From a virus: a stretch of 64,000 bases of DNA. A program made the translations under genes and the position numbers. The stretch covers positions 1-64,000 of the IMG/VR virus record IMGVR_UViG_3300037493_003260; one strand, written 5' to 3'. Shown here piece after piece: positions 4,949 through 58,405 of the stretch. Numbering within the stretch: the stretch's first letter is position 1; each line of letters starts with the position of its first letter. The notes under the pieces were generated by a model. That model was not told the DNA's origin. It saw only the letters and a list, made by a program, of their open reading frames with translations, and did not search any database.

Positions 4949-7204
4949 TCAGTCCTGCAAAATTGCGTACTTCCCGCTAGAAGAAGCCTGCTTATCCACG
5001 TTGTCTTTTTGAGAAGCTAAGTCTTTCTTTAGTTGTATGTAGTCCTTGGTTCGTGTGTCCTGATAAATAGATTTATGCATACTTTCTGTTTGCTTGGGCT
5101 GTGCAGCTCCAAAGAATACAGGTGCAAATACAGTGTTCTTAACAAACGGCTCATTGGTTAGGGAAATCGTTGTTGTATAGCCGTTTTGAAAATTATGACT
5201 GACATGGCTAATCTCCAGCAATTGGCCCTTAATACTGACAGATGCACGCAAGTCAATTGTCTCGTCTCCTACCACCGTCAGAGTCCCACTAATTGTAGGA
5301 ATACTAGCCCGTGCCAATTCCGCCAGTGCTCTTACCTGCATTCTGGTTTTAACACTAAATTCATTATTAGAGCCATATGTAGGGTCATTACCAAATTTAG
5401 AGTTACTCCAACCACTCAGGGGAATTGCTACTTGGTTTAAAACGATTTCGTATTGAGTATCTGTAATTGACTTTGCAGGTTCCCCAGACCCCGTGCTTAC
5501 CACAGGAGGGGGATTGTCTACAGTATACTCTACCTCGGTTGTTCCTGTGTAGAAGTCGTAATTTAACAAAATCTCTACTGCCATGGTCCCGCCATTGCCA
5601 AATACATCCTGGGTAGTCCAGTTACCATAAGAATCGTGACTGCTAAAGGTAGCCTTTTTTTGTCCCACAGTTGCACGATTCACCTTGCCATGTTTGGTCA
5701 CAGCATACCATATCTTGGGAACTTCGTTTAAGAACACAGTAGCGTGGTCTGAATCAGTATAAACAACTTTAGCACCAAGTCCGACGCGAACTGGGGCGTG
5801 TGTGGCAATCCTGGTTACAACAGGATACAAAGATGTGTACGTGGAATCATTTAATACTTCTCCTGTGGCGTTTGTCCATCCAAATGCACTGTCTTTAAAA
5901 CCACTTCTAAACTCAGAACTTGATTCGCCAGCCCCCACGAAATCATCTAAACAGACCTGAATTTCTTCATCAAATGTTACTGTGGGCTTAGCCTTCTGCC
6001 ATCCAAACACTTGGATATCTTGCAGATTTGTACCGCTAATCTGAAAGCTCAGAGACATACGCCCGTCAGGGTCCTTTTTAGCTACTACTTGTCCAATAGC
6101 ATATTTTGTTCGATACTTTGTGACGGCACCGACAACCGTGACTTTTTTTACGACATCTATGTATGATTCGTCTATCTTGTAGCTGATGATGTTTTTTCCA
6201 AATTGAAACTGACGCGTCGCAAACCCTAAACTGCCGAATCGGTAAACAGAAGTGGCATCCGTAAGCATGTCGTGATAAAGGCGATAATTACCAATGCGTG
6301 ACAGCACCAGCTCAGCAGCTGCAAGAACAGTTTGGTCTGTTATATCAACATATCCTGGGTATTCGTTAGGACCTCCAGTTACGCCTAGTTTAGTCAAAAT
6401 GTCATATGCACTGGCAGGATTTCTTAAAATAGCTAGCGTTTCAGGCGTGGTATCTGCGGCGTTAAACACGGTATTGATACTATGTGCGTCCGTACTAAAC
6501 AATGTCTCTTGTATCAAATCAGTGATGTTACTATGACACACGTAGTTTATTTGTAGGCCACTAGCATCAATAGAATCATTCTTTATTGTTGTGTGCCCTT
6601 TAAATATTTTACGCCCGTTAATGAATATTTCTACGGGTTCGTCCAATCCAGGAGCTGTTTCTCGTGGGTCAACTGGCAAATTAAATGAAGCCGTTGAAAG
6701 GTCACTGCCAAAACCCAAATCTACAGATTCCAGTATCGCTAAAGGTTGTAGGATACTGTTAATGTAAACCTGGTAAGAGGGGGTTGTAAACCTTGGAGCA
6801 TTAGTATCCAGAGTTGGAGTAGCCGTAGCTACATTTGAATCTGCTGATTCTTGCCCTAGCCCATTGGAAGCTCTAACTACAAAGTCTACGGGAACATCCG
6901 TAACAAGGCCGCCAGCTAAATAGCTTGTTCCAAGTGTGTAAAGATTCGGATTAAGTTTGGTGTATATAGCACCCACTTTTTTATAAATGTTAAAGCTGCT
7001 AGCAGAACTGCTCCAAGAAAGGTTTACTGTGTCTCCAGTGCCCGCATCTACGGCTACTAGTCCTATAGGTGCACTTGGAATTGGATTGAGCATATCTGTC
7101 TGGGCATAAAGGTCTTCTATCTCTGGCTTAGTGATTTGCACTGAGCCGTATAGAAGCATAGGTAATTTTATGACTGCACTAGAAGATATAATTTGTTCTG
7201 CCAT
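4949..7204 (-). CDS. Putative tail hub (Tal-like) protein with N-terminal fibronectin type III domain
   Basis: FN3 pattern PSAPIGL..VNLSW..FNIY..FVVRASN..ESADSN; hub-like C-terminus (LTVVGDETIDL..ISHVSHNF..GYTTTISL). Confidence 0.7.
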   Translation of the reverse strand: MAEQIISSSAVIKLPMLLYGSVQITKPEIEDLYAQTDMLNPIPSAPIGLVAVDAGTGDTVNLSWSSSASSFNIYKKVGAIYTKLNPNLYTLGTSYLAGGLVTDVPVDFVVRASNGLGQESADSNVATATPTLDTNAPRFTTPSYQVYINSILQPLAILESVDLGFGSDLSTASFNLPVDPRETAPGLDEPVEIFINGRKIFKGHTTIKNDSIDASGLQINYVCHSNITDLIQETLFSTDAHSINTVFNAADTTPETLAILRNPASAYDILTKLGVTGGPNEYPGYVDITDQTVLAAAELVLSRIGNYRLYHDMLTDATSVYRFGSLGFATRQFQFGKNIISYKIDESYIDVVKKVTVVGAVTKYRTKYAIGQVVAKKDPDGRMSLSFQISGTNLQDIQVFGWQKAKPTVTFDEEIQVCLDDFVGAGESSSEFRSGFKDSAFGWTNATGEVLNDSTYTSLYPVVTRIATHAPVRVGLGAKVVYTDSDHATVFLNEVPKIWYAVTKHGKVNRATVGQKKATFSSHDSYGNWTTQDVFGNGGTMAVEILLNYDFYTGTTEVEYTVDNPPPVVSTGSGEPAKSITDTQYEIVLNQVAIPLSGWSNSKFGNDPTYGSNNEFSVKTRMQVRALAELARASIPTISGTLTVVGDETIDLRASVSIKGQLLEISHVSHNFQNGYTTTISLTNEPFVKNTVFAPVFFGAAQPKQTESMHKSIYQDTRTKDYIQLKKDLASQKDNVDKQASSSGKYAILQD

Positions 7205-7205
7205 T

Positions 7206-7646
7206 TTAGTTTATAACAGTGCGTCCATCTGCAGTAATACACATGAGACGTTTCTGATTGTGTCCTTCCAAATCTTTATACTGAAAACCTAGAAAATAAT
7301 TGATACCAGGAATTCCGACCTCTTGAAGATGCAAGTCAAAGTCCCGTGTTATTTCTCTGAAATATATAAGTCGATATTTAAGGCCATCCTTTCTAAGCAT
7401 GTCTGCCCTGGGTTCTAGAAAGCAGGCTTCCTCGTAAGGAATTTCATGCCGTGTGATTCCGATTGTCCCGTTCTGAAGGTCTACTTTGTATTGTACTAGA
7501 GAGCGTCTGTTGACCAGCCTAAATTGCACAAGATTGTCTTGGTTGTCAAGTACAAGCTTAAAAGGTACTTCTGTACCGTCGCTGTTGTACTGCCATAAAG
7601 GTTCAGGGTTCCCAGCAAAGTAGGCCCCCCAAATAAGGTCAAACAT
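7206..7646 (-). CDS. Hypothetical protein in tail module
   Basis: ORF with GGGAGG SD and its own consensus promoter. Confidence 0.75.
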   Translation of the reverse strand: MFDLIWGAYFAGNPEPLWQYNSDGTEVPFKLVLDNQDNLVQFRLVNRRSLVQYKVDLQNGTIGITRHEIPYEEACFLEPRADMLRKDGLKYRLIYFREITRDFDLHLQEVGIPGINYFLGFQYKDLEGHNQKRLMCITADGRTVIN

Positions 7647-7701
7647 AGTGCCTCCCGAAGACGAATTGCATTAGATTTACTGCAGAGTGTGCCATATGTA
7701 C

Positions 7702-7730
7702 ATTATAACACAAAAAGAAAAGAATGTCAA
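7702..7730 (-). promoter_or_regulatory. Consensus sigma70-type promoter
   Basis: TTGACA-17 bp-TATAAT with extended -10 TG. Confidence 0.85.
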
Positions 7731-7784
7731 CATTGTATTGCAGACATTCCGAACCCGATTGGCATGGAATTGCCAAGGACGTGC

Positions 7785-8249
7785 TTACGTTTCGTCGTAG
7801 ATTAACTTGAACGTCTTTGTGTTAACCGCGCCTGGGGGCGTGGCGACTGTCGTTTGCAGCTGAAGTGTAATGTAACCACTGTAATCAGGATTAGTCACAG
7901 GTGCACTGGGCACCAGTGCGGACCCTTCCACAGTAGGAACAGCCACGGTAGCTACAGAAGAGGTAGTAGAAACAGGTGTAGCATACGAGGCATTAACCGC
8001 AGCCTTGATTGATTCGCCTGTTACGTAAGACCCAGCCGACTGATAAAAACGTAGATTAGCGACAGACGTAAACGACCCAGAGAACTTTGCACGAATCCAT
8101 TTCTCAAAACTGTTCTGACCCGCTGCGATAGGATTACTTGCAGGTGTCAAGTTCGGAGAATCAATGTTTCCAAAGTTCAGATTACTAAGTGAGTCAGTTA
8201 CAACTGCACTAACTGTATTGGTTTCAGAGAAACTTACTGTTGCTGGCAT
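7785..8249 (-). CDS. Putative virion structural protein (beta-sandwich)
   Basis: S/T/A/V-rich 154 aa, strong AAAGGAG SD, in tail module. Confidence 0.65.
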   Translation of the reverse strand: MPATVSFSETNTVSAVVTDSLSNLNFGNIDSPNLTPASNPIAAGQNSFEKWIRAKFSGSFTSVANLRFYQSAGSYVTGESIKAAVNASYATPVSTTSSVATVAVPTVEGSALVPSAPVTNPDYSGYITLQLQTTVATPPGAVNTKTFKLIYDET

Positions 8250-8282
8250 GAGTGTATCTCCTTTCTTTAGAATTTACTGGAA

Positions 8283-9206
8283 TTACGAATTGAAATCTAG
8301 CCTTATGCGAAATCGAAGATTGATTAACCCACTGGGGGATGTTGTAGCAGGAGCAACAATCCTGAACGATATTTGTTTTGCACAGTTGCTTGGTAACGGA
8401 TTAAGAAAAGTATGCGAAATATTGCCACCAATTTGTGTAAATGCCGCTTCAGCGTCATCCACAATGGTATACGTATAATCTACTAAGACCTCTGTGCTAT
8501 AGTTAGGCAAAGTAGTTCCTAGTGTAATATACCCAGAAACAGAATTAAACGTGCCTCCTGTGTAGTAGTTAGTACCAAGTCTGTGAGAGTCTGTATTCAG
8601 ATAGACCCCAGTAACTGTAAGCAAATGCTTATGTGCTGCTGTAAGATGAAGCTCATCGGTAGACGTTTGACGCTCAAGTGACACAGTGACAGGATTACTG
8701 ACTACGCCAGCTGAACGAATACCAAGCCACGCAAATTCTTGAATTTCTGCTCCGAAGTCAGTTCTATCTGGAGTATACGATATTTCAATAGTGCTACTTA
8801 TCATAGGAATTTTTCCGTTTAAGCCGTCTCCAAATAAAATTGTTCCAGCGTTGTAGTCTACGATGTAGACTTCATCTGAAGAAGTCGAAGAATCAAAGGA
8901 AAATACAGCTGACCAGATAACTCCGTTTACTTTGACTACCACAGGATTAAGTGCATCTCCTGAAATGATAGGCGCGTAGGCTACAGTATAAAGTTGCGAA
9001 GGACTACCATCACTGTATCCAGCCAATTCACCAATCAGGCTCATTCCCAGCACAGATAAAGTGATATCCTTAGCGTCCATTGAGCCACTCAAACCTCCTT
9101 TGTCGTTCCAAAGGTAAAAAGGATTATTGGGGTGCTGAAATTCCTGGCCAGCAATGACTCCTGTAAAGACTACGGGATTCCCTGAATTTCCAATCTCAAT
9201 TTCCAT
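8283..9206 (-). CDS. Putative tail/baseplate accessory structural protein
   Basis: V.VNG..W..Y.VDY..G.I.FGDG..G.IP..I.ISY pattern typical of phage baseplate-associated beta domains. Confidence 0.6.
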   Translation of the reverse strand: MEIEIGNSGNPVVFTGVIAGQEFQHPNNPFYLWNDKGGLSGSMDAKDITLSVLGMSLIGELAGYSDGSPSQLYTVAYAPIISGDALNPVVVKVNGVIWSAVFSFDSSTSSDEVYIVDYNAGTILFGDGLNGKIPMISSTIEISYTPDRTDFGAEIQEFAWLGIRSAGVVSNPVTVSLERQTSTDELHLTAAHKHLLTVTGVYLNTDSHRLGTNYYTGGTFNSVSGYITLGTTLPNYSTEVLVDYTYTIVDDAEAAFTQIGGNISHTFLNPLPSNCAKQISFRIVAPATTSPSGLINLRFRIRLDFNS

Positions 9207-9207
9207 A

Positions 9208-9369
9208 TCATTCCACCATGAACAATCTGACGTTAGGTTCTCCTGTAATTATAACAGCAGAAGAGGTAATTTCTATGCTTCTTACTTGAATAATAAACGC
9301 CTGGGCATCTATTGTCTTATGGCTAGTCCCAGACACGTTAGCTTCTGAATCAATAGTTTTTTCACTCAT
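9208..9369 (-). CDS. Unlisted 53-aa protein made of TI-x-S-x-A-x-I repeats
   Basis: Manual translation MSEKTIDSEANVSGTSHKTIDAQAFIIQVRSIEITSSAVIITGEPNVRLFMVE; fills the gap exactly. Confidence 0.8.
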   Translation of the reverse strand: MSEKTIDSEANVSGTSHKTIDAQAFIIQVRSIEITSSAVIITGEPNVRLFMVE

Positions 9370-9370
9370 A

Positions 9371-10717
9371 TTAGATTACCACGTAAAGCGTTAGAACTGG
9401 TTCAATTTTAAAAATCATTGCCGACGACTCAATGGTTTGACTTGCTTCGATGCATATAGACGCTTGAGAGTTAATAGTTTTCCCCGTGGTCGTCTTGATA
9501 TGTGCACCTGAACTAATTGTGTGCTCTGAAACTAATATGATGTTTGCATTGGAGTCAATGCTAATTTGCGGCGAAAGTATATAGCTATCTGAATCAATAG
9601 TTTGTTCATTTGTTTCGCCGCAAAAGGCACTCGATTGTATAGTGAGTTCAGCAGTACTTTTGATTGCTGCGTTTGAGCCTATTGTTATGAATGCCGTGTT
9701 CAATTCAAACATGAACGTGCCAAAGAGCAAGTCTTTTGAATTGGCATTAGAAGACCAAGTACTACCACTATTGGAACTGTCCCAGCGTTGGCCCAAAGCG
9801 TATTCGTCTACAGTATAGTCATTTCCAAGATTATACCGATGCGTTGCATCTACGTTATTAAATTGCAAAACAATTGCATATTCAGTCCCTGCCAGTAACG
9901 TAGCGGGAGTAGTAAACGTTACATCAACAGGTGTTGATGCAGCATCTGTGGGGATGGCTGTATCAACTAAGGATTGCGTGGCAAGAGCACTTCCAACGGG
10001 TTTGTGACTTCCATCAACAGCATAAATAACAACGTCAGTAGTTCCTGTTGTTTGTCCGTCTACTTTTGTTAGCCAGAATCTGATTTTCTTTAATTGTCCT
10101 GCTACCGAAGGAATAAAAGTTTGTGCACGATAAGCTCCTGCAAGAGCCACCTGATACTCAGCTGGATTTCCTGCACGAGAGCCAAAAATCCATTGGTCTA
10201 ATCCAGGTGTTGCTACAGGTACGTCCATTGTAGTTACAAACGCACACGATTTGGGAGAGGCACTAAACCATGTAGAGCCACTATTATTGCTCCAATATAA
10301 TGTTCCTGCAGTGTAGATAGTGTGCGTTGTGCCCCACCACAAATAACCGTAGAGTGCACATGTGCTAGAAGCAACAATTGCATAGACTGTGCCTGATGTT
10401 AAAGCAGCTGGGCTAGAAAACGTGACAAGAAGTTTTGTGTTTCCGTAAGTGCCAGCAGCAGGAACGTTTCCCTTTGGAATAGTTTGTGTGGCTAGCGGGC
10501 TACCAGTTGGCTTTCCACCAGATGTAGCATAAATTTCAATAATTAAATCAGTATTGGCATCTATTCTAGCTATAGCCAAAGAAACCGAAGTTAAATTGCC
10601 AGTTACACTTGGGGTAAAGCCTTGCGCTAGACGATACGTTGTGTTAATATATACGCCAGAGACGGGTAAATTGGTATCCGTCCAAAGCATGCACTGGTCA
10701 TTAGTTAGCGTAGCCAT
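9371..10717 (-). CDS. Putative receptor-binding/decoration protein: two tandem beta domains plus 7 C-terminal 14-aa repeats
   Basis: Internal duplication (AQGFTPSVTG / AQTFIPSVAG; GTVYAIV / GTEYAIV; NSGSTW x2), followed by TIxSxAxI repeats. Confidence 0.7.
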   Translation of the reverse strand: MATLTNDQCMLWTDTNLPVSGVYINTTYRLAQGFTPSVTGNLTSVSLAIARIDANTDLIIEIYATSGGKPTGSPLATQTIPKGNVPAAGTYGNTKLLVTFSSPAALTSGTVYAIVASSTCALYGYLWWGTTHTIYTAGTLYWSNNSGSTWFSASPKSCAFVTTMDVPVATPGLDQWIFGSRAGNPAEYQVALAGAYRAQTFIPSVAGQLKKIRFWLTKVDGQTTGTTDVVIYAVDGSHKPVGSALATQSLVDTAIPTDAASTPVDVTFTTPATLLAGTEYAIVLQFNNVDATHRYNLGNDYTVDEYALGQRWDSSNSGSTWSSNANSKDLLFGTFMFELNTAFITIGSNAAIKSTAELTIQSSAFCGETNEQTIDSDSYILSPQISIDSNANIILVSEHTISSGAHIKTTTGKTINSQASICIEASQTIESSAMIFKIEPVLTLYVVI

Positions 10718-11187
10718 TACGTAATCTCTGCGCCTGACTGAATTGTTTTACTGGTTACAATGATATTATGCTCAATAGCGTCTGCTACTTGAACGTTTAT
10801 TTTATACTGTTGATAATTTGAACGTTCTTGTGTCTCGAATTGAATACCCTCAACTGTCATCTGCCCTTTATAATATATATGTCGCTGAACACTAATTAAA
10901 TGCAGTTGACCTGGCCCCGTACCGATTCCATTGACAAGATTCTGTCTGGATGTTTCCATGTCATCCCAGCTATTTGTTTTATTGAATAGCACTCCAGTCA
11001 ACTCAATTGCACGTTCATTGAGCGACAAATTTTGAACGACTACCCCATCCATTAGCGGCACAGTTATAACAGCAGTACGCTTCCCAGGAGACGGTCTACG
11101 AATCTCTGGCTTAGGAAAGAACACATAGGTTCCTGCGTCTCCGTTATCTCCACGTCTCCATTCAACTCTTACAGGAACAAATGCCAT
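10717..11187 (-). CDS. Putative distal tail protein (Dit-like)
   Basis: 156 aa directly downstream of tape measure; VPLMDG..R.IEL.G pattern. Confidence 0.6.
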   Translation of the reverse strand: MAFVPVRVEWRRGDNGDAGTYVFFPKPEIRRPSPGKRTAVITVPLMDGVVVQNLSLNERAIELTGVLFNKTNSWDDMETSRQNLVNGIGTGPGQLHLISVQRHIYYKGQMTVEGIQFETQERSNYQQYKINVQVADAIEHNIIVTSKTIQSGAEIT

Positions 11188-11199
11188 AGTTAGTTATCC

Positions 11200-12927
11200 T
11201 TAGACTAGCGGGGCTGCCGCTTTATTTTCTTTTGAAGCTGTCACTGCGTTATTACGAAATAACGAAGCAATTATACTAGGCAACCCTGTAATAACTGCAT
11301 TCCGTACGGCTGTCTGAATTGCTTCTGGCGGCAGATTGAAGTCAATCTGAACATTAAATTTAGGTTGCACCTGGGCCTTGATAGCAGTTTCAATTTCTGC
11401 CCCCATGGCACCATATAGAGCCTTGACCTTACTTAAATCAGACATACCGCTAATATCAGCCATCTTTGTTTTGATGGAGTCTAACGCAATGTCTACTCCG
11501 CTAAATAACGATGAGTAGTTTACGCCAATTTGAGCAAGCATATTAGCTAGATTCTGAGAAATCCCGTAACTTTTGCTAAGTTCTGTTGCTAGTTGCCGCA
11601 CAGGAACATTGGCTTGCTGAGCAGCCTTAACAAGGTCGAGAGCACCTTTAACTTGCCCAAGAAAACCCTTTTTGTCGTTTGCGCCTGACTCGCGTTCACG
11701 CTGTGCATCAAATACTGCTTTTGCGGCTTTCTTAGTTGCAGTAACACGGTCACTCAAAAGCGTCTGAAGTTCTCTCGTAGACCATTGGTAAGACTGTATT
11801 AAAGCTATTTGTTCTTTGCTTAATACATCAACACCATCTCCTTCAGCTACTACCAAGAGGTCTTCTATTTTAGCAAGGTCTCTAGCCATTTGTTGCCGTT
11901 CGTCACGCGTTTTACCCAATCTAAGGGTTGCAAGTTCTAATTCTTTGTCAAAATTAAAGGTAAATTCTTTTCCAGGAGATAACGCCTTTTGAACATCCTG
12001 AACTCCTGTAGCCATCCTAGTTAATAAAGCTATGAAACTTGATAGTCCTGTGCTAGCTAGTAATACTTTTTTAGTTGCATCACTTGTATAAACTAATTCT
12101 CCTGAGTAATTTGCAAGTCCCTTTGATGCTTTATGAAGTCCTTGTACTAAATCTAAAACAAATGTGGCACCCAATATTTTGACATCAGCAATTAATTTTA
12201 AAATGGGTAGGCCAAAAGCTCCTATGCTTTCCTGTGTTTGCTTTTGTACATTTTGTAATAGCTGCAGTTTGCCCGCATAAGTACTAAGTTCATTCGAGGC
12301 GGCCCCTTTGAATTTTTTAGCCAACAAGTCCATTAGAGTTCCTTGTCTAACTGCTTGCTGAATATCAGCCTGTCTAAGGTCTGTTACCTGGGTAAGAATT
12401 CGTGTATATCCTGCCTGTGCCCTGTTTAGAATATTAGTAGCAGTGACCAAATCCATTCCAGTTGCTGCTGCAAAATCTTGTGCAACTGAAACTTGCTTTA
12501 ATGCTAATCGTAAATCTCCTGTGCGCCTAGCCGCAACAGTAACAGCAGATTGAATTTGCTCAGCTGAAAATCTTGTTTTTCGGCTGGCCGTGTCTGCAAA
12601 TTGAGTTACAAGAGATATGTTTTCTTTGGAACTTTTTCCTATGAGTCCCAACTGTGTTCGCATTCGACTGAATGTTACCTCAGCCCTCCCTGCTGCAGGA
12701 GCTGCTTGTACTAAAAATTTAAGAAGGCCAAATCCAGCTTTAGCAATATCAGCAGCAATTAATAAACCAAAAATACGTCCAAGTATTTTACCTTGAACAG
12801 CAAATTTTGCTATTCCTACAGACAGTTTTCCAACCCAGCCAAGCGTAGACGCAAAGCTACCAGCGGCTTCTCGGAAACCTGTACTGTCAAAAACACTGGC
12901 TATTCTAAAAAGAAGACTTGATGCCAT
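11200..12927 (-). CDS. Tail tape measure protein
   Basis: Ala/Leu/Lys-rich helical protein after tail chaperones; TRFSAEQI..VAQDFAAATGMDL..A motif. Confidence 0.85.
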   Translation of the reverse strand: MASSLLFRIASVFDSTGFREAAGSFASTLGWVGKLSVGIAKFAVQGKILGRIFGLLIAADIAKAGFGLLKFLVQAAPAAGRAEVTFSRMRTQLGLIGKSSKENISLVTQFADTASRKTRFSAEQIQSAVTVAARRTGDLRLALKQVSVAQDFAAATGMDLVTATNILNRAQAGYTRILTQVTDLRQADIQQAVRQGTLMDLLAKKFKGAASNELSTYAGKLQLLQNVQKQTQESIGAFGLPILKLIADVKILGATFVLDLVQGLHKASKGLANYSGELVYTSDATKKVLLASTGLSSFIALLTRMATGVQDVQKALSPGKEFTFNFDKELELATLRLGKTRDERQQMARDLAKIEDLLVVAEGDGVDVLSKEQIALIQSYQWSTRELQTLLSDRVTATKKAAKAVFDAQRERESGANDKKGFLGQVKGALDLVKAAQQANVPVRQLATELSKSYGISQNLANMLAQIGVNYSSLFSGVDIALDSIKTKMADISGMSDLSKVKALYGAMGAEIETAIKAQVQPKFNVQIDFNLPPEAIQTAVRNAVITGLPSIIASLFRNNAVTASKENKAAAPLV

Positions 12928-12942
12928 TGCGTATTGCTCCTG

Positions 12943-13185
12943 TTATCCTTCTTCTATAATTCTAAAAGTTGTAGCTTTCTTGGAAGGTCCTGAATGCAGA
13001 CCGCTTCCGACAGCCTCCGAGGTAGCTTCCTCGATGGCTTTATTCATTTTTGCATTAGCGTAGACAAGCACTTTGAATTGCTCAAAAGGCATGTCTTCAA
13101 TGCAGTCAGTTTTAAATACTTTATATCCTAAGGAGTGTGCCACGTTGAACTGAATGGAAAACTGTGGACTCCCTATTAGTTTTTT
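12943..13185 (-). CDS. Tail assembly chaperone, -1 frameshift extension (gpT-like)
   Basis: Open -1 frame from slippery A-AAA-AAC through KLIGSPQFSIQFNVAHSLG into ORF 12943..13143. Confidence 0.8.
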   Translation of the reverse strand, partial: KKLIGSPQFSIQFNVAHSLGYKVFKTDCIEDMPFEQFKVLVYANAKMNKAIEEATSEAVGSGLHSGPSKKATTFRIIEEG

Positions 13186-13745
13186 AGTTCAGTGTCCGTG
13201 AGTACGAAATGTTGCTCCCAACGATTGTAAAGACTATAGATTGTAGCTTCTTCAATGGCAGCTACATCTTCCAGGGTATCAAAGTAACGCCTATTGGGAT
13301 TCTCTTTCTTCTTTAAGACACAAAAAACCGTCATGTATCGTTCTTCTGCAGCTACACGGGCCATAACAATGTCTATATTAAACTTGTACTCCTGGAAGTG
13401 TACAACTGCTTCCGTGATAGCTGCTTTGATGTCATTGACATCTCGATACGTAAGCGGGCTTAAAATGCCCTCAATGCTATCAGCCTCAAGTTTGATTAGC
13501 TCAGCCTTTGCTTCTTCAGCACGGGCTTGTGCTTTGACTTTTTCTGACTCGTCTAGCTTTGGCATGGCCTCTTCGATTGAGAATAACTCAGTCTCTAAGG
13601 CTTCTACTAACGATGTATGACGGTAAACATTAACTAAAAACGGCTTTTTATGGAGTTTCTGAAGTGCATTGGTAACAGCTTGTTCTTTTACCAGGCCATC
13701 CACAAACGCCTTATCTTCCTTTTTACTTTCATTTTCTTTTTCCAT
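13176..13745 (-). CDS. Tail assembly chaperone (gpG-like)
   Basis: Between tail tube and tape measure; start reset to MEKENES after GGGAGG; ends ...ELKN on slippery site. Confidence 0.8.
   Translation of the reverse strand: MEKENESKKEDKAFVDGLVKEQAVTNALQKLHKKPFLVNVYRHTSLVEALETELFSIEEAMPKLDESEKVKAQARAEEAKAELIKLEADSIEGILSPLTYRDVNDIKAAITEAVVHFQEYKFNIDIVMARVAAEERYMTVFCVLKKKENPNRRYFDTLEDVAAIEEATIYSLYNRWEQHFVLTDTELKN
13179..13185 (-). other. Programmed -1 ribosomal frameshift site AAAAAAC
   Basis: CTA AAA AAC TAA, X-XXY-YYZ heptamer in the canonical G/GT position. Confidence 0.8.
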
Positions 13746-13766
13746 AACACCCTCCCGAAGTGTTAG

Positions 13767-13806
13767 GGTGCTGGTCAAGCAGTCGGGAGCCGCTTGACCA
13801 GTCACC
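13767..13806 (-). terminator. Stem-loop after tail tube gene (attenuator/stabiliser)
   Basis: CTGGTCAAGC / GCTTGACCAG 10-bp stem; no clear U tract. Confidence 0.5.
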
Positions 13807-13834
13807 CTTATGTGTGCACAACTACAACTGCAAT

Positions 13835-14599
13835 TTAGCCGAGGTATGCAGTAAACGCCTCAAAAACATCATTCGCTCCAAAATCAGCTTTTGGAACTTG
13901 CACCTTGCTTCCTGTTACGATGGCACCAATGTACTCAGCACCGTTTTTCAACACGTAAATCAGTGACTGGCCGTCCAAAGCGGACTTGGCTGCACTTACG
14001 GTTTGCGGAGTATTATCGACAGTCCATTCATAGTAGTCGTCGCCAGTATCAATTGCAGCAACTTTATCGGCTCTGGAGTTGGCTACATTTTGAGGAAACG
14101 CCGTGCTAGAAGCACGTAGTGCCCTCGTGTATTCCAACGCCACACCTTTCAAACGAAGTACATTCACAGCAACGCCGCTGCGAGAAATCGTGGCTTCATC
14201 TCTTACAGGTTCAGCAACTGCAGCACCCGTCAACCGCACACCTTTGCAAAGCACGGACTGAAAAATCGAATTATCGCTTTTCTTCCGCACGTTCACTACG
14301 ATGCACAGGTCCTTATATTGAGATGGGTCATCCACGGTCGCCGTGGCATTCGGGTCAAGGTCATTGACCACTGCATCGACCAGTTTGCTATCTGAATCAA
14401 AGTGGTCAAAGCGAACTTCAACCCCATTGAAGTTTGTTACAATAGCTACAGCTTCAGGGCTATCGAACTCGAATATCCGCTTCTCATCAAAAGCAGGTGT
14501 GTAATCAAAGGTCTGTGCAAGTGGCACCCGCACAGCTCCATGATTGGCACTCACTAGCTCAATCTTTGTTTGTGTTCCAACAACGAATTCAATCGACAT
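13835..14599 (-). CDS. Major tail tube protein with C-terminal accessory domain
   Basis: Position between tail terminator and chaperones, AAGGAG SD, followed by hairpin. Confidence 0.75.
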   Translation of the reverse strand: MSIEFVVGTQTKIELVSANHGAVRVPLAQTFDYTPAFDEKRIFEFDSPEAVAIVTNFNGVEVRFDHFDSDSKLVDAVVNDLDPNATATVDDPSQYKDLCIVVNVRKKSDNSIFQSVLCKGVRLTGAAVAEPVRDEATISRSGVAVNVLRLKGVALEYTRALRASSTAFPQNVANSRADKVAAIDTGDDYYEWTVDNTPQTVSAAKSALDGQSLIYVLKNGAEYIGAIVTGSKVQVPKADFGANDVFEAFTAYLG

Positions 14600-15114
14600 C
14601 TTTGTTTCTCCTTATTCTTTAGTTTATTTTTTACGATTCTTTCACAGTGTCTGATGAAATCAGAAACTGAAAATTTCAACTTCATTTTGTTACATCTTCC
14701 ACAGCAGGGGGCTACGTTATCGAGAATATAACCCTTACTGTTATCAACTCGGTCCAATCCGATTGTTTCGATTTCCAAGCCACAATACGTACACGGCCTT
14801 TGCCAAAAGGTTATAAACTGCTCAAAGGATAGCTCGAATAGCCTATTGTCAGCCTTGGCATTCTGCACGTATGAGCCATAACGACCTTTAGGACTTTGGC
14901 TATGTCTCACCCGTGTTAACTTAGTTTGAAGAGGATGCTTTTTGTTATACGCTGACGAAATACGAATCCCTTCTTCTTGATGCCTGCTGCAATGGTTCCT
15001 TCTCTTTGCTTTAGTGCACTCTTGACATTCAGGACGTAAATTATTGTAAACTCCTGAGCAGGCATAAAATTGAGACTCGTCTTTTACTTCCTTGCAGCGG
15101 CAACACTTTTTCAT
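14554..15114 (-). CDS. Free-standing HNH-like homing endonuclease
   Basis: N-terminal CxxC pairs; CTYCG..GLDRVDNSKGY..N..CC..CN. Confidence 0.85.
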   Translation of the reverse strand: MKKCCRCKEVKDESQFYACSGVYNNLRPECQECTKAKRRNHCSRHQEEGIRISSAYNKKHPLQTKLTRVRHSQSPKGRYGSYVQNAKADNRLFELSFEQFITFWQRPCTYCGLEIETIGLDRVDNSKGYILDNVAPCCGRCNKMKLKFSVSDFIRHCERIVKNKLKNKEKQRCRLNSLLEHKQRLS

Positions 15115-15692
15115 ACTATCTCGGCATCCGTTTTGATAGTCTTAAATTTTGTTCTTTGTGACAACTCTAACCAAAAAATCCTAACCAGAAGCACATACCG
15201 TTTCAAGTTTTGATTTTGCGGGTCTACTAAAAGCTTTTCGTTTATTGCATTGCTGTTGTTATCTACCCATAGATAACCAATCTGTGGCTTATCGGGGTGT
15301 CCGTAATCCACCAAGGGAATACGACTCACGCTCAAAGCATCTATTACTCGGTCTCTGAAATTACGTACCTTATTGGTAGCAGCCGAGTAATCTGCACTAT
15401 CCTGGTCAGTGCATACTATCTCTATCAATGTTTGATTTTTCGTGCCATAAATCGGGTCATCTCCATCGAATCCGATTAAGCGGTCAAACGCTATTTCGCC
15501 ATAATTAAAAAGGCCAATTTCAGTAATACTGATTGCGGGCGTAGTCAATGGAGCAATAGGAAAATCAAACAGCCAGTAAAATTCCTTGCCAGCAGGCAAT
15601 GGAGGAATGCCTATATGGCCACCCTGAATTGTATGGGTTAGCCAATAGTTCAATGAAGCGATTAAATTTTCTTTTCCATGGAATTTTCTCAT
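15111..15692 (-). CDS. Putative tail terminator protein
   Basis: Position upstream of tail tube; FP..PAISI pattern. Confidence 0.6.
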   Translation of the reverse strand: MRKFHGKENLIASLNYWLTHTIQGGHIGIPPLPAGKEFYWLFDFPIAPLTTPAISITEIGLFNYGEIAFDRLIGFDGDDPIYGTKNQTLIEIVCTDQDSADYSAATNKVRNFRDRVIDALSVSRIPLVDYGHPDKPQIGYLWVDNNSNAINEKLLVDPQNQNLKRYVLLVRIFWLELSQRTKFKTIKTDAEIV

Positions 15693-15733
15693 TTTATATG
15701 TCCAAACCTATCCGCTACTTTACAGCTTTGTCT

Positions 15734-16348
15734 TCAATTGGGTATCTCCTGAACCTCAGGGGGAGGTACAACAGCTCCAGCTTTTTCCATACGAGCAAGC
15801 CACTGCGAAAAGTATTTCTCAAACCAATGTTCTGCTTTGTACAATGCAATATCCGTAAAATGCCGCCCTGGTATAGAGCCAGTACCAAAATCCATAGCAT
15901 CTTTATAGGGTACGGTGTTTTCGATAGCAACCTCAGTGGTTTTAGGTAGGCCGTCTTCTAATTGCGAAAACGCTTTGCCTTCTGCTACTTGGGTAGAATC
16001 AGGGGCATAACTTCGGTATTCTTCGGTCTTGTTTCCTTTTTTCCAGGCTCCGTACAAACTGGTATCGAATATCTGCTTAGAATAGTCGATTTGATATTTG
16101 TCAAGGTAAGCCGTCCAGCCACCCCGTAGTTTTCCTGTGTGTAACGGTGTAACCCGTATGAGGTACTTGTGGCAAACTCCCACTAAATCCTTGTAAAGTT
16201 TGCGATAATACTCGCCAAACTTTGCGAGAGACTTTTCCAAGTCTTTCACTTGTTTAGGATTAGCCACGGATATAGAAAGCCTCAGGGTGCCGCTACCTGC
16301 CTGTTCGGATGCTGAAGGTACCATGACCCCAAACAATCTGTCGGCCAT
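15734..16348 (-). CDS. HK97 gp10-like neck/tail completion protein
   Basis: TPLHTGKLRGGW and IENTVPY..DFGT motifs. Confidence 0.75.
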   Translation of the reverse strand: MADRLFGVMVPSASEQAGSGTLRLSISVANPKQVKDLEKSLAKFGEYYRKLYKDLVGVCHKYLIRVTPLHTGKLRGGWTAYLDKYQIDYSKQIFDTSLYGAWKKGNKTEEYRSYAPDSTQVAEGKAFSQLEDGLPKTTEVAIENTVPYKDAMDFGTGSIPGRHFTDIALYKAEHWFEKYFSQWLARMEKAGAVVPPPEVQEIPN

Positions 16349-16779
16349 TAAGCATTCCCCACTTTTCTAAGAACATAGATGAATGCTTTGTCACGGGCAA
16401 TTAGCGTTTCAGGGTCAAGGCGGCCAACTATTCGATATTCATGTTCACGATAACGAATGCGGTCCCCTTGGCTAGTACCGCCTGTCTGTACAGCGGAATC
16501 CACAAAATTAAGTTTTTGTGTTAATGAAATACGCAAATCTCCAATTTGATAGATGCCACCTGAATAAAGAACGTCGCTAGCTGTCACAGAATCAATAACA
16601 GCCTTCACAGGTGTAATTTTGTAGGCATATTTTGCCTGCACACCATTAAGAGGGTCCCCAGCATCTGCAACGCCCGTGTACTGTTTTAAATACACTTTTT
16701 CTCCATATGGAACGTTTACATCCCGTATACAGTCGTTAACAAAAGCCTGGTCTTTTTCTGAAAACTGCTCTCCTGTCAT
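16348..16779 (-). CDS. Putative head closure (stopper) protein
   Basis: 143 aa beta-rich, GDRIRY...YRI pattern, neck position. Confidence 0.65.
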   Translation of the reverse strand: MTGEQFSEKDQAFVNDCIRDVNVPYGEKVYLKQYTGVADAGDPLNGVQAKYAYKITPVKAVIDSVTASDVLYSGGIYQIGDLRISLTQKLNFVDSAVQTGGTSQGDRIRYREHEYRIVGRLDPETLIARDKAFIYVLRKVGNA

Positions 16780-16791
16780 GCTAGTTTCCTT

Positions 16792-16998
16792 TTAAGCCGC
16801 TGTGGGTGGCTCAGTTGGTTTTTGTAACATTTTGTCAAACTCTGCTTTAGGAACGTCAACCCTGCCAGATTTAGAGAACAAATGTACAATCGTCCGTCCA
16901 TCGTCTGTCTTAGTTTCGCCCTTCTTGATTGCTTCCAGGTCTGCATCCGTAAAGTCTATTCGCTGACCTTTTACAACTACCGAGTAAATCTTTGTCAT
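16792..16998 (-). CDS. Hypothetical protein
   Basis: Tiled ORF with AAGGCGG SD. Confidence 0.65.
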   Translation of the reverse strand: MTKIYSVVVKGQRIDFTDADLEAIKKGETKTDDGRTIVHLFSKSGRVDVPKAEFDKMLQKPTEPPTAA

Positions 16999-17013
16999 GT
17001 TGTACCGCCTTTT

Positions 17014-17706
17014 CTATATGATTTGTGAATTTGATTGAATCGTATCCGTGCCAGTAAAACGCGGCAAAATACGATTCGTTTTGTTGAATGTTCGTAATAC
17101 GTTAATCTCTGCCTGTAACTGTACTTCGTTTTGTTCAATAATTGCATTCAATTGTCCAACTATGTTTGTCTTGTTGATTGAACGTCCTGCGACAGACACC
17201 GAGAAATAATCACGTGCTTCAATCATTAAAGCCTTCAGGACATTTGTGTAAAGCCGCTTACAAATGGCTACTGCGTAATCGTGGGGAATCTGCTCTGAAC
17301 TAATTGGCCTATAAATAAGAACAGAAATTTCTCGCAAAGCCATCCAAGCAAACCTGGAAAGTTGCTCTGCTGTAAAAGGAAAACAGTTATAATCTGCTTG
17401 GATTATATCTGTGGTTGCTACAGGGAATGTTACTGTTCCGCCCGTTAGACTCACTGTGTAGTCAGTACCTTCAAACTGTAAGGTCTCCACTCCTAAGTCA
17501 TTAATGGCAGTAATTCTTGGTGATGGATTTGCATTCCAATCGCCGTGTTTGGCAGTGAATATCGTGCCTGTGGCATTGGGGCGTAAGTCTTCTCCGACTA
17601 TTCTAATAAATAGCATAGAAAGCAGCTGCGTTTTGCAGTGCAAAGCTAATTGGGTAATGCTCATTGGCACCCCTGAAGCTGGTGTCAGATATACCGTCTG
17701 TGTCAT
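17014..17706 (-). CDS. Putative head-tail adaptor with inserted beta domain
   Basis: Helical adaptor-like pattern upstream of stopper, with EGTDYTV..GTVTF..I.ADY insert. Confidence 0.6.
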   Translation of the reverse strand: MTQTVYLTPASGVPMSITQLALHCKTQLLSMLFIRIVGEDLRPNATGTIFTAKHGDWNANPSPRITAINDLGVETLQFEGTDYTVSLTGGTVTFPVATTDIIQADYNCFPFTAEQLSRFAWMALREISVLIYRPISSEQIPHDYAVAICKRLYTNVLKALMIEARDYFSVSVAGRSINKTNIVGQLNAIIEQNEVQLQAEINVLRTFNKTNRILPRFTGTDTIQSNSQII

Positions 17707-17708
17707 GT

Positions 17709-18290
17709 TTAATCTCCGTCCAATGTGTAATGCCCTAGACTATCCACAGTCATTGTGTGAACTTCTGAGATTACACCAGTTTTTCTAAATTCAACTAAAT
17801 AGATTCCCGCAGATAAGAAGAATGTTGCTTTACCATCAGATGCTGTTTGACCAGAGGCAATGATAACCGAAGGATTGTTTTTATCATAAACACTGATGGT
17901 AGCGTCAGGAATAGGCTGCATGGTGGCCGAGTTCTCAACTACGAGAACAATTTCAAATTCGCCAGTTCCAGAGCAGGTATTCACGGGAATAACTCGAAAT
18001 TCTTCGGTAGTGACAGTATCTATTCCGTCAAACACTGTCTTAAAAGTGGTCAAATATTTGGTATATGAGGCTAGCAAAGGAATCGTATATTTATGGTACC
18101 AGCGATTGCTAGACCCTAGTTGTGTCATTGCTATAGGGGCTAAGTCAATTATTTCGCCGCCACCATTCACATGTGTAATTTCCACTGTGGGTACTGAATA
18201 GCGTGAAATATCTGGTATTGTATTGGATAAACTCAATACTGTAAGCATTACAGTATTTAAATCTCCTCGGTTAAAAACAAAGTCACTCAT
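17709..18290 (-). CDS. Virion protein with Ig-like / carboxypeptidase-regulatory-like domain
   Basis: QPIPDATISVY..GQTASDGKATF.L.AG.Y.VEFRK.G. Confidence 0.65.
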   Translation of the reverse strand: MSDFVFNRGDLNTVMLTVLSLSNTIPDISRYSVPTVEITHVNGGGEIIDLAPIAMTQLGSSNRWYHKYTIPLLASYTKYLTTFKTVFDGIDTVTTEEFRVIPVNTCSGTGEFEIVLVVENSATMQPIPDATISVYDKNNPSVIIASGQTASDGKATFFLSAGIYLVEFRKTGVISEVHTMTVDSLGHYTLDGD

Positions 18291-18337: not shown

Positions 18338-19018
18338 TTAAGCAAGCCCAGATACACTTTTAATTGATGCTACGGGAATTCCTGATATACTTTTGATGGA
18401 ATCATAAGGTACCCCCGACACTGATTTTATGTCAGTAACTGGTGGCTTTAATGCCATATGAAAACTATGCCAAGAATTGTTGACGGCGAATGTGCCTGTT
18501 TGGTTTCCAGTTGCACCCGCTGTGGTGTAGATTTTGTTACATTCTGAACCATCACCATGCAAGGTGTAACCTGTGGGGGCTGTCATACCCCCAATAGTAG
18601 ATACATTAAGAAATATGACTAAGGCATTATTAGTGGCTGTTGTGATACTCAAAGCCACACATGCTTTATTACTATGTCCATGATTTGATGCCGCCGTACA
18701 GTCATTTGGGTTACCACTGCTAATGGCACCTGAATATGCATTAACTGTTGCAAGCCTAGTAGCTGAGTTATGAGTCCAAGTCCAGCTTGAACCTTCAGAA
18801 GAGGCTCTCTTCCAATATACACGGGCCTTTGCAGCCCAAGTTTCAAAAGGACTGCCACTGTATTCGGTCCATCCTGAAGGGGCGGTTACGGTAACGTCAC
18901 TGATATAAAAATATGCTACGAGAATATCTCCATCGACTACTCCAGCGGGTTTATTTATTGTTGTATTTACACCTGTTGCGTATGCAAACTTTGTCTGTGA
19001 CCTGTATGCTACTGCCAT
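18338..19018 (-). CDS. Putative fibre-tip/receptor-binding protein with C-terminal IKSxSG repeats
   Basis: KPAGVVDGDILVA..TAPSGWT..VYWKRA beta domain; 3x IKS[VI]SG at 11-aa spacing. Confidence 0.65.
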   Translation of the reverse strand: MAVAYRSQTKFAYATGVNTTINKPAGVVDGDILVAYFYISDVTVTAPSGWTEYSGSPFETWAAKARVYWKRASSEGSSWTWTHNSATRLATVNAYSGAISSGNPNDCTAASNHGHSNKACVALSITTATNNALVIFLNVSTIGGMTAPTGYTLHGDGSECNKIYTTAGATGNQTGTFAVNNSWHSFHMALKPPVTDIKSVSGVPYDSIKSISGIPVASIKSVSGLA

Positions 19019-58116: not shown

Positions 58117-58117
58117 G

Positions 58118-58405
58118 TTATTTCTTACTGCCAGGAACCCAGAGCTTATTTTGCTTGCCCTGTTTGGACTGTTCGACTAGCCCCGACAGATGCTTGACGA
58201 CCGCTAATGCCGTCTCATCGTTTTCGTATGTCTTGAACACTCGACTTGTGACATACATGGCCAGAGGTCGTGTCAGGTTCTGAATATTCTGAACTTGAAT
58301 TTCCTGGGTGTCAGGATGATAGGTAATAAGCATCTTGACCGCTTTGGTTTCTCTTGCTATGTCCTCAGGGGTGGATTCCTGGGGTTTCTCAGTTTCGTCA
58401 GCCAT
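58118..58405 (-). CDS. Hypothetical protein
   Basis: AAGGAG SD; C-terminal KLWVPG. Confidence 0.7.
   Translation of the reverse strand: MADETEKPQESTPEDIARETKAVKMLITYHPDTQEIQVQNIQNLTRPLAMYVTSRVFKTYENDETALAVVKHLSGLVEQSKQGKQNKLWVPGSKK

What the first reader, a model, noticed from the sequence alone, without database searches (positions are those of the whole stretch)
4949..17706. Shared TI-x-S-x-A-x-I peptide tag on the ends of six neck/tail proteins: candidate modular virion docking system
Seen: single copies at the extreme C-termini of the adaptor (TIQSNSQII*), tail terminator (TIKTDAEIV*) and Dit-like protein (TIQSGAEIT*), and at the N-terminus of the hub (IISSSAVI). The 448-aa protein ends in seven tandem ~14-aa copies (TIGSNAAI, TIQSSAFC, TIDSDSYI, SIDSNANI, TISSGAHI, TINSQASI, TIESSAMI). 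An unannotated 53-aa ORF (9208-9369) is three copies. Both repeat proteins end in EP-x-hydrophobic strands. Inference: beta-strand tags on core ring proteins act as sockets or nucleators. Repeat-bearing accessory proteins, or a small subunit such as 7785..8249 that binds each strand, would dock by strand complementation and decorate neck and tail tip. I know of no description of this.
Basis: partly seen in the sequence, partly recalled or inferred. Interest (0 to 1): 0.85.

Follow-up and report, generated by a model that had tools for sequence, protein, structure and literature searches.

The report
Portable 14-residue connector on phage tail proteins
An uncultivated long-tailed phage and its relatives reuse one 14-residue beta-strand unit, in long arrays inside tail-tip fibre proteins and as single copies on the free ends of neck and tail ring proteins, which most likely lets separate virion proteins zip together.

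Summary
The motif is one unit of an uncatalogued, strictly 14-residue repeat (roughly Q-T-I-x-S-[DN]-A-x-[IV] plus 5 linker residues).

- **Arrays:** 7 to 17 units, closed by an E-P-x-L-x-L-Y-V-V strand, join lectin-like heads to tail-tip bodies.
- **Single or double units:** these sit on free ends of the adaptor, terminator, Dit-like and hub-like proteins. A C-terminal unit is always followed by exactly one residue.
- **Conservation:** 30 of 30 terminator orthologues and 22 of 27 Dit orthologues keep the unit. Ring proteins gain or lose it in 14-residue steps, at the C- or the N-terminus depending on lineage.
- **Fusion and fission:** relatives fuse what this phage splits (head+array to hub body, array to the 307-aa body). 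The breaks fall at the units.
- **Co-variation:** tags follow their own genome's array consensus (8 of 12) without codon-level copying.

This supports a portable non-covalent connector. Binding itself is not shown. The array does not fold as a monomer model, and no partner was identified. Some relatives have arrays but untagged rings, so the arrays are older and the ring tags are a later addition.

The scan index holds other "shared terminal tag" findings, but none on this repeat or on virion rings.

The parts
17014..17706 (-). Head-to-tail adaptor (230 aa). The core fold is residues 12-210. A flexible linker and one C-terminal unit (17020-17043) follow, then one last residue.
   Evidence: The AF2 model has mean pLDDT 84.5, with residues 211-230 below 50. 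VIA-align gives Z 8-9.5 over about 100-117 residues to head-to-tail adaptors of many solved phage necks. For the tag. In relatives the unit is at the C-terminus (1 or 2 units), at the N-terminus, or absent.
15111..15692 (-). Tail-terminator-like protein (193 aa) with one C-terminal unit (15117-15140) plus one residue.
   Evidence: Gene order, and an Atlas lead to Phage_tail_terminator_9 at 0.91. There is no Pfam or PHROG hit. 30 of 30 orthologues at 51-82% identity end in the unit. More distant relatives end right after the core, or carry a unit at the N-terminus.
10717..11187 (-). Short Dit-like ring protein (156 aa) with one C-terminal unit (10723-10746) plus one residue. Its stop overlaps the start of the 448-aa gene.
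   Evidence: Weak hits to PHROG Dit families and to Pfam Sipho_tail, the latter below its cut-off. 22 of 27 orthologues are tagged. Four full-length orthologues are 13 or 14 residues shorter and untagged, a fifth untagged one may be cut, and one has two units.
9371..10717 (-). Accessory protein (448 aa). It has two lectin-like beta-sandwich domains (1-341), an array of 7 units (9413-9685) and a closing E-P-hydrophobic strand.
   Evidence: In the AF2 model residues 1-341 are confident and 342-448 have pLDDT below 50. Foldseek matches phage baseplate proteins and lectins. Homologues match DUF4082 and Lectin_like. All 12 homologues carry 7-17 units in strict 14-aa register, with the last unit starting 22 residues before the end.
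9208..9369 (-). 53-aa ORF of 3 units plus a closing E-P strand. It is the split-off N-terminal array of the 307-aa body protein.
   Evidence: Matrix hits. In G001, L030, G003 and L032 the same array is fused in frame to the body. In the window a stop, one base and a new ATG separate them.
8283..9206 (-). 307-aa 'body' protein. In all six related genomes it is preceded by an array, either fused in frame or on the C-terminus of the upstream gene's product.
   Evidence: The alignment of four genomes shows 43-49% identity. Context in six genomes.
7785..8249 (-). Conserved 154-aa protein. Its role is untested.
   Evidence: Present after the body gene in all six genomes. Relatives were found in 27 viral contigs, 17 with an array within 6 kb. 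No family hit.
4949..7204 (-). Hub-like tail-tip protein (751 aa). It has an N-terminal unit (7169-7192), a K-L-P-hydrophobic strand, an FN3 domain (about residues 42-127) and then the body.
   Evidence: FN3 by phmmer against PDB. Homologues carry 1-2 N-terminal units in G002, G003 and L032. In G001 a full head+array is fused at that point, and in L030 the protein is split in three at units.

Best explanation
The motif is one unit of a 14-residue beta-repeat that this phage group uses as a connector. Arrays of units, closed by an E-P-hydrophobic strand, form the stalk between sugar-binding-like heads and tail-tip body proteins. Single or double units on flexible free ends of the adaptor, terminator, Dit-like and hub-like proteins are copies of the same unit.

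I infer that a terminal unit co-folds with an array, or with another unit, by intermolecular beta-sheet extension, much as neighbouring units of an array pack on each other. Proteins that some relatives make as one chain would then be held together without a covalent link in others. In the window's sub-lineage, lectin-bearing accessory proteins could also be hung on the neck and on the Dit ring.

**Shown:** the unit, its arrays, terminal placement, conservation, modular gain and loss, fusion and fission at units, and within-genome co-variation.

**Inferred:** that units bind units, the oligomeric state, and where on the virion the accessory proteins sit.
For: 1. **Enrichment at free ends.** Searches show enrichment in two complete genomes and in 468 ORFs. 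8 of 8 C-terminal units are followed by exactly one residue.
2. **Selection on the peptide.** 30 of 30 terminator orthologues and 22 of 27 Dit orthologues keep positions 2, 4, 6 and 8 while the other positions and the codons vary.
3. **Modularity.** Dit is 142/143, 156 or 159 aa with 0, 1 or 2 units. The adaptor has 0, 1 or 2 C-terminal units or 2 N-terminal units. The terminator has a unit at the C- or the N-terminus.
4. **Fusion and fission at units.** In G001, head+array is fused to the hub body (1650 aa) and an array is fused to the 307-type body (377 aa). In the window and in G002 these are separate genes that end or begin with units. In L030 the hub is split in three, with an FN3 piece of 122 aa that ends in a unit.
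5. **Lineage-private variants shared by arrays and tags.** G002 uses a G-N-A-H-I type in both its array and its hub N-terminus, and G003 uses an A-N-T type. 8 of 12 tags score best against their own genome's array profile, where chance would give 3. Codon identity is at the genomic baseline, so this is not recent DNA copying.
6. **Tags lie outside the monomer fold.** The tag and linker are not part of the adaptor's own fold, and the array is not a self-sufficient monomer fold (pLDDT below 50).
Against: No interaction was observed or predicted.

- G002 has an array protein and hub tags, but its adaptor, terminator and Dit are untagged. More distant lineages have arrays and no terminal tag on neighbouring ORFs. 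So array proteins are incorporated without ring tags.
- One untagged Dit (P0107) shares its longest-contig length (27,886) with a free-standing 448-type protein. If they lie on the same contig, a Dit tag is not needed for that protein.
- 4 of 12 tags score better against another genome's arrays.
- Terminal tags prefer a polar residue (E, T or Q) at position 7, where array units prefer F, T or I. They may therefore be read differently from array units.
- Ring symmetry (6 or 12) against an unknown array oligomer is unresolved.
- The identity of the 'terminator' and the 'hub' rests on weak leads.
Confidence: 0.42

Rival explanations
1. A third protein reads every unit. A common small receptor, for example the conserved 154-aa protein at 7785-8249 or the 307-aa body, would bind each unit by strand addition. 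It would coat arrays and bridge tagged proteins.
For: The 154-aa and 307-aa proteins are present in all six related genomes, next to the arrays. Arrays lie within 6 kb of a 154-type gene in 17 of 27 viral contigs. Terminal tags differ from array units at position 7, as might be expected for a dedicated reader. The fixed single residue after C-terminal units could reflect recognition of a free carboxyl end.
Against: Ten of 27 loci with a 154-type gene show no array within 6 kb. No fold or family is known for either candidate. The pair was not tested. Lineage-private variants shared by tags and arrays need no third party.
Confidence: 0.2
2. Arrays are only a fibrous stalk or spacer, perhaps a homo-oligomer. 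The single terminal units would be evolutionary stubs left by recombination or gene fission at repeat-coding DNA, with no docking role.
For: Arrays are widespread and older than ring tags. Array length varies from 7 to 17 units, and 12 of 13 family members have an odd number, typical of an expandable stalk. Gene breaks fall at units. The array has pLDDT below 50 as a monomer, as fibre shafts often do.
Against: Stubs should decay. Instead 30 of 30 terminators and 22 of 27 Dit proteins keep the unit pattern at 51-82% identity. The unit sits exactly one residue from the end in 8 of 8 cases. Units were gained on either end of proteins of three unrelated folds. No ring protein was seen fused to a full array, although two of the three searches looked only at proteins of similar length.
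Confidence: 0.17
3. The unit is a recognition site for a modifying enzyme or an assembly factor, such as glycosylation of its Ser or Thr by the phage's glycosyltransferase, or proteolytic trimming. On this view it is not a structural contact.
For: Thr and Ser at positions 1 and 4 are conserved. From recall, C-terminal extensions of virion proteins are glycosylated in some actinophages.
Against: The alternating hydrophobic and small pattern at positions 2, 4, 6 and 8 and the strict 14-residue register point to beta structure. Some lineages replace Ser-4 by Gly or Ala. I did not test whether the enzyme gene occurs together with the units.
Confidence: 0.06
4. The motif reflects a DNA or RNA element at gene boundaries, such as a recombination linker or a regulatory site, that happens to be translated.
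For: Several copies lie at gene ends.
Against: Codons differ freely between copies. Codon identity at identical residues is at the genomic baseline, 0.19-0.62 against 0.18-0.52. The units also occur deep inside ORFs in arrays.
Confidence: 0.01

Closest known systems
N-terminal anchor modules of phage fibres and tailspikes that dock on adaptor, Dit or baseplate proteins (T7 gp17 on gp11/gp12; Dit 'arm' with lactococcal RBP/BppU; branched tailspikes of CBA120/G7C). Recalled. Structures of this kind appear among the VIA matches.
   Same: Receptor-binding heads are attached non-covalently to conserved ring proteins through a conserved terminal module, and the heads are exchangeable.
   Different: Those anchors are folded domains specific to one site. 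Here the shared element is a 9-10-residue strand unit. It is repeated in arrays on the accessory protein and copied onto several unrelated ring proteins, at either terminus.
Donor-strand complementation/exchange in chaperone-usher pili and related beta-strand augmentation. One example is the PilC C-terminal tails on the Kingella type IV pilus (PMC13711793; only the search listing and abstract start were seen).
   Same: A short terminal strand with alternating small and hydrophobic residues is proposed to complete or extend a partner's beta sheet and so join subunits.
   Different: No acceptor with an incomplete fold has been identified here. The same unit is tandemly repeated. The context is a virion and not a pilus.
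Amyloid signalling motifs of fungal and bacterial NLR systems (HET-s/NWD2, BASS). Sources: PMC9815663 and bioRxiv 10.1101/2020.01.06.895854. Only search listings and abstract starts were seen.
   Same: One short motif sits at the N-terminus of one protein and the C-terminus of another encoded nearby. It is sometimes in one copy on one partner and in repeats on the other. It works by homotypic beta templating and has lineage-specific variants.
   Different: There are no NLR or cell-death effector domains, and nothing here suggests amyloid or signalling. The proposed role is structural assembly. This is a resemblance in logic, not family membership.
Fibre-shaft repeats of about 15 residues (adenovirus and reovirus triple beta-spiral). 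Recalled.
   Same: A short, strictly periodic beta repeat forms a stalk under a receptor-binding head. It does not fold as a monomer.
   Different: The recalled shaft motif has a conserved Gly or Pro turn, which this unit lacks. Shaft repeats are not known to be copied singly onto ring proteins.

Membership tests
Head-to-tail adaptor (T7 gp11 / T4 gp13-like class), for 17014-17706 | [quoted passage not shown] | tested here: met
   The AF2 model has pLDDT 84.5. VIA-align gives Z 8.0-9.5 to the 12 best entries, which by their titles are phage tail, neck, connector or portal-tail complexes (KHP30, cyanophage A4, phage 812, Pa223, B2, GP4, P1, T4, SU10, N4). Foldseek E-values are only about 1e-3. 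The description of this adaptor class was read in passages of the Jabs preprint.
Head-to-tail adaptor, for 17014-17706 | Sequence-family match (Pfam/PHROG) | tested here: not met
   The window protein has no family at the thresholds used, and none of the 12 aligned members matches a connector family.
Tail terminator, for 15111-15692 | Sequence or feature similarity to terminator families, and position between the head-completion genes and the major tail gene | tested here: inconclusive
   The position fits. The Atlas gives a lead to Phage_tail_terminator_9, E217_gp29, Gp37 and Phage_tail_U clusters at 0.86-0.91. There is no Pfam or PHROG hit. No structure was predicted.
Distal tail protein (Dit), for 10717-11187 | Match to the Dit N-terminal ring domain, and position directly after the tape-measure gene | tested here: inconclusive
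   phrog_33 at E 1.7e-4 and phrog_202 at E 1.9e-3. Pfam Sipho_tail scores 16.9 bits, below its cut-off of 24.2. The position fits.
Donor-strand complementation systems | Terminal strand with alternating hydrophobic and small residues | tested here: met
   Positions 2, 4, 6 and 8 are I/V, S/A/G, A/T/S and I/V in 119 array units and in 59 terminal tags.
Donor-strand complementation systems | An acceptor subunit with an incomplete fold or groove that takes the strand | not tested
   No acceptor was identified, and no model was made of the 154-aa or 307-aa proteins.
Amyloid signalling motifs (NLR/effector pairs) | Motif shared between an NLR N-terminus and the C-terminus of a cell-death effector | tested here: not met
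   All carriers are virion structural proteins. No NLR or effector domain was found in Pfam scans.
Triple beta-spiral fibre shaft | Repeat of about 15 residues with a conserved Gly/Pro turn (recalled definition), forming a trimer | tested here: inconclusive
   The period is 14 and strict. No conserved Gly or Pro is present in the window's lineage, although some lineages have Gly at position 4. The oligomeric state was not tested.
Any catalogued repeat family (Pfam) | Profile match over the array | tested here: not met
   No Pfam model covers the arrays in the window protein, in 4 homologues, or in 10 array proteins of distant lineages. phmmer against PDB gave only a borderline hit to an RTX protein at E 0.022.

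The most novel reading that the evidence does not exclude
Phage virions of this group are partly held together by a self-complementary peptide 'Velcro'. A 14-residue beta unit, present in arrays on exchangeable receptor-binding heads and as single copies on the ends of adaptor, terminator, Dit and hub proteins, pairs with itself. Evolution can then move a head between covalent fusion and non-covalent docking, and add new docking sites on the neck or tail simply by appending one unit. Array and tags drift together within each lineage, which keeps docking private to that lineage.
Probability: 0.33. Interest if true: 0.8.

Novelty: new variant of a known kind. Interest (0 to 1): 0.62.

Why it matters
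If units do pair, this would be a minimal, transferable docking code for virion accessory proteins. Three consequences follow.

- It would explain how these phages shuffle receptor-binding heads between proteins and positions.
- It would let attachment sites be predicted from sequence alone in a large, uncultivated phage group.
- It would offer a natural peptide-tag system for decorating phage particles.

Even without the docking claim, the work defines an uncatalogued 14-residue repeat family. It was found in 17 of 27 viral contigs that carry a 154-aa marker gene. It also corrects the annotation of a split gene, the 53-aa ORF plus the 307-aa body.

Tried and rejected
**DNA-level element.** Rejected, because codons vary freely.

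**Public phage genomes.** There was no match for the 448-aa protein or for the 12.8-kb region.

**Single-protein scans of viral contigs.** Scans with the 448-aa protein and the terminator found no relatives. Alignment-based scans did.

**The look-up of encoding contigs.** Links between proteins 'on the same contig' therefore rest only on equal longest-contig lengths and are unverified.

**Dit tag and a free-standing 448-type gene.** I tested whether the two go together. The four tagged Dit proteins whose longest-contig length equals that of a 448-type homologue fit this idea. One untagged Dit (contig length 27,886) also shares its length with one. I dropped the rule.

**Complex prediction.** Dit was folded with residues 165-448 of the 448-aa protein, using my own alignments. 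The result was no verdict (score 0.00, mark 0.32). It counts neither for nor against binding. Two earlier submissions with the full-length protein failed technically.

**Array structure.** AF2 left the array at pLDDT below 50, so its fold and oligomeric state remain unknown. The 154-aa, 307-aa, terminator and hub-like proteins were not modelled.

**Family and structure look-ups.** Pfam, PHROG, PDB sequence searches and the Atlas gave no name for the hub-like, 307-aa or 154-aa proteins. The low-E-value 'SAKe' hit of the 307-aa protein had no qualifying stretch, and I disregarded it.

**Terminal tags in distant lineages.** Loci of plus or minus 6 kb showed none on neighbouring ORFs, apart from the hub N-termini and the G001 terminator C-terminus already known. 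These loci do not reach the neck genes.

**Literature.** Three full-text searches returned no listed paper whose title or abstract start describes a peptide shared by phage ring proteins and fibre repeats. This is not proof of absence. Supplements were not consulted, and subscription journals are not covered. One paper version held only a stub, so I read passages of the preprint version instead.

**Earlier findings of the scan.** The index has no look-alike of the array. It holds other shared-tag findings on non-virion proteins.

Full report
**What is there.**
The window is part of an 84,088-nt virus record with all genes on the minus strand.
- A unit of the form T-I-x-S-x-A-x-I, plus one residue, ends the 230-aa adaptor, the 193-aa terminator-like protein and the 156-aa Dit-like protein.
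- One unit starts the 751-aa hub-like protein.
- Seven units in 14-residue register (with one 13-residue step) end the 448-aa protein.
- Three units make up most of a 53-aa ORF.

Both repeat proteins close with an E-P-x-hydrophobic strand. The hub-like protein has the matching K-L-P-hydrophobic strand after its single unit. Codons at the conserved residues differ freely between copies.

**Chance.**
To avoid circularity I built a 9-column scoring matrix from 119 units of 12 homologues of the 448-aa protein, using none from the window.
- In the 129 ORFs of the whole genome it finds 15 hits of at least 9 bits, against a mean of 2.4 in 300 shuffles. Terminal hits fall in 5 proteins, against 0.11 expected. 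Three hits elsewhere look like noise.
- No further protein of the genome has a terminal unit, apart from one weak hit.
- A second, complete genome (G001, 104,771 nt) gives 17 hits against 2.9, and 3 terminal hits against 0.11.
- Over 468 ORFs in ten sequence sets there are 8 C-terminal hits against about 1.1 expected. Every one is followed by exactly one residue. There are 8 N-terminal hits against about 2.5 expected.

**Conservation and modularity.**
- *Terminator.* All 30 orthologues found (51-82% identity) end in the unit. I/V/L at position 2, S/A/T at 4, A/T/S at 6 and I/V at 8 are kept, while the positions between them vary.
- *Dit.* Of 27 orthologues, 22 are tagged and one of these carries two units. 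Four full-length ones are 142-143 aa instead of 156 aa and end just where the tag would begin. A fifth untagged one sits on a 599-nt contig and may be cut.
- *Adaptor.* The two closest representatives (52% identity) carry one and two C-terminal units. Nine more distant ones stop right before the tag. Adaptors of G003 and L032 instead carry two units at their N-terminus.
- *Distant terminators.* Those of L030 and L016 carry a unit-like N-terminus and no C-terminal tag.

The unit is therefore an appended, portable piece. It has been placed on either end of proteins with three different folds.

**What the carriers are.**
- *Adaptor.* Its AF2 model is confident for residues 12-210 and has pLDDT below 50 for the linker and tag. 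It aligns with head-to-tail adaptors of many solved phage necks at Z 8-9.5 (Foldseek alone is weak). Passages of the Jabs preprint describe this adaptor class. [quoted passage not shown] That would place a tag on either terminus in a similar, outer position. This last step is my inference.
- *Terminator and Dit labels.* They rest on gene order, an Atlas lead and weak PHROG/Pfam hits.
- *448-aa protein.* It has two confident lectin-like beta-sandwich domains that resemble phage baseplate proteins and lectins (DUF4082 and Lectin_like in homologues). Its array has pLDDT near 30, so it is not a self-sufficient monomer fold.

**The array.**
In all 13 family members the units keep a strict 14-residue register. 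The last unit starts 22 residues from the end, and an E-P-V-L-K-L-Y-V-V-like strand closes the protein. Unit numbers are 7, 7, 9, 9, 9, 11 (five times), 12, 15 and 17, so 12 of 13 are odd. Two unit types partly alternate, which points to a two-unit super-period. No Pfam model covers the arrays.

**Fusion and fission.**
This is the strongest argument for a connector role.
- *G001.* One 1650-aa protein reads head-head-(2 units)-head-head-(7 units + E-P strand)-FN3-hub body. A 377-aa protein reads (4 units + E-P strand)-307-type body. Dit is untagged and there is no free 448-type gene.
- *The window.* The head+array is a separate gene (448 aa). The hub-like protein keeps one unit plus the strand. 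The array in front of the 307-aa body is cut off as the 53-aa ORF by a stop, one base and a new start.
- *G002.* A 936-aa protein ends in about ten units plus a closing strand, and the 306-aa body follows as its own gene. The hub starts with two units, and the rings are untagged.
- *G003 and L032.* A LamG-like head, 7-9 units and the body form one chain. The hub starts with one or two units.
- *L030.* The hub is split in three. One piece is a 122-aa FN3 protein that ends in a unit plus one residue.

In six of six genomes an array directly precedes the 307-type body, either in the same chain or on the upstream protein. The breaks always fall at the units.

**Co-variation.**
Arrays differ between lineages: S-[DN]-A in the window and G001, G-N-A-H-I in G002, and A-N-T in G003. 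The terminal tags of each genome follow suit. Scored against array profiles of four genomes, 8 of 12 tags fit their own genome best, where 3 would be expected by chance. The sample is small and not independent. Codon identity at identical residues is at the genomic baseline, for example 3 of 16 for the G002 hub tag. The likeness is therefore kept at protein level and is not due to recent copying.

**Breadth.**
Relatives of the conserved 154-aa protein occur in 27 viral contigs. 17 of these have an array of three or more units within 6 kb. Further lineage variants appear there, such as G-Q-A and G-K-[AS]-R-I types. The detector fires on 0.05-0.1 ORFs per shuffled genome and only on the true arrays in G000 and G001. 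In these more distant loci no neighbouring ORF carries a terminal tag, apart from the hub N-termini and the G001 terminator tag already known. The neck genes lie outside those loci. Arrays thus look ancestral, and ring tags look like a later addition in the window's wider clade.

**Reading.**
The data fit a portable connector whose units pair with units. Rivals are a shared third-party reader, a plain stalk with leftover stubs, and a modification signal. What is missing is any direct sign of binding. The single complex job gave no verdict and is listed only under tried and rejected. Points against my reading are given in full in the Against line. Array proteins exist without ring tags. One untagged Dit may coexist with a free head protein. 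Tags differ from array units at position 7. Four of 12 tags prefer a foreign profile.

**Comparison with what is known.**
The logic resembles anchor modules of phage fibres, donor-strand complementation and amyloid signalling motifs. The defining features of the last two were either not met or not testable here (see Membership tests). Three literature searches returned nothing describing such a shared unit on phage ring proteins. For the cited papers I saw listings and abstract starts only, except passages of the Jabs preprint. The scan's own index holds several shared-tag findings in other phages, all on non-virion proteins, and none on this repeat. Later checks of those findings priced their bold readings low, and I took that into account in my odds.

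Noticed in passing
window 18338-19018 (-): The 226-aa protein ends in three tandem 11-residue copies of an S-I-K-S-x-S-G-hydrophobic peptide. The last copy is again followed by exactly one residue. It fits the loose motif but was not among the C-terminal hits of at least 4 bits. It could be a different terminal repeat or a diverged cousin.
   Followed up: partly
window 9204-9212 and 9367-9375: Both gene junctions around the 53-aa ORF have the form stop codon, one base, ATG (TAA-T-ATG and TGA-T-ATG). This spacing would suit termination-reinitiation coupling of the split pieces.
   Followed up: partly
window 14554-15114 (-): A Cys-rich 186-aa ORF sits between the terminator-like gene and the major tail gene and overlaps both ends. 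By eye it looks like an HNH-type endonuclease. No search was run.
   Followed up: no
window 17709-18290 (-): The 193-aa protein just upstream of the adaptor has a CarboxypepD_reg/prealbumin-like domain at residues 118-185 (Pfam E 3e-6, below the cut-off). It is conserved at this position in L014 and G001.
   Followed up: partly
proteins P0002-P0012 (448-aa family): Every second unit in the first half of many arrays reads S-D-A-F-C-G-E-E-T, with a conserved Cys and Gly. This gives a 28-residue super-repeat. Disulfide bonding or metal binding is possible.
   Followed up: no
L030 12661-13029: In this relative the FN3 domain of the hub-like protein is a free-standing 122-aa protein with a C-terminal unit. 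It lies between an 857-aa head+units protein and a 585-aa hub body.
   Followed up: partly
G001 57961-58392 (L015 6361-6792): A 143-aa protein of unknown function, two genes upstream of the adaptor, ends in a weak unit (5.7 bits) plus one residue. I did not identify a counterpart in the window.
   Followed up: no
window 9371-9709 (-): phmmer of the array against PDB sequences gives a borderline match (E 0.022, 94 residues) to an 'RTX protein' chain, 9q5u_A. It might hint at the array's fold.
   Followed up: no
model m1123be513eb0, residues 34-108: The adaptor's beta domain aligns (Z about 6-6.7) with the N-terminal domain of T7 fibre gp17 and with similar small beta domains of tail and baseplate proteins.
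   Followed up: no
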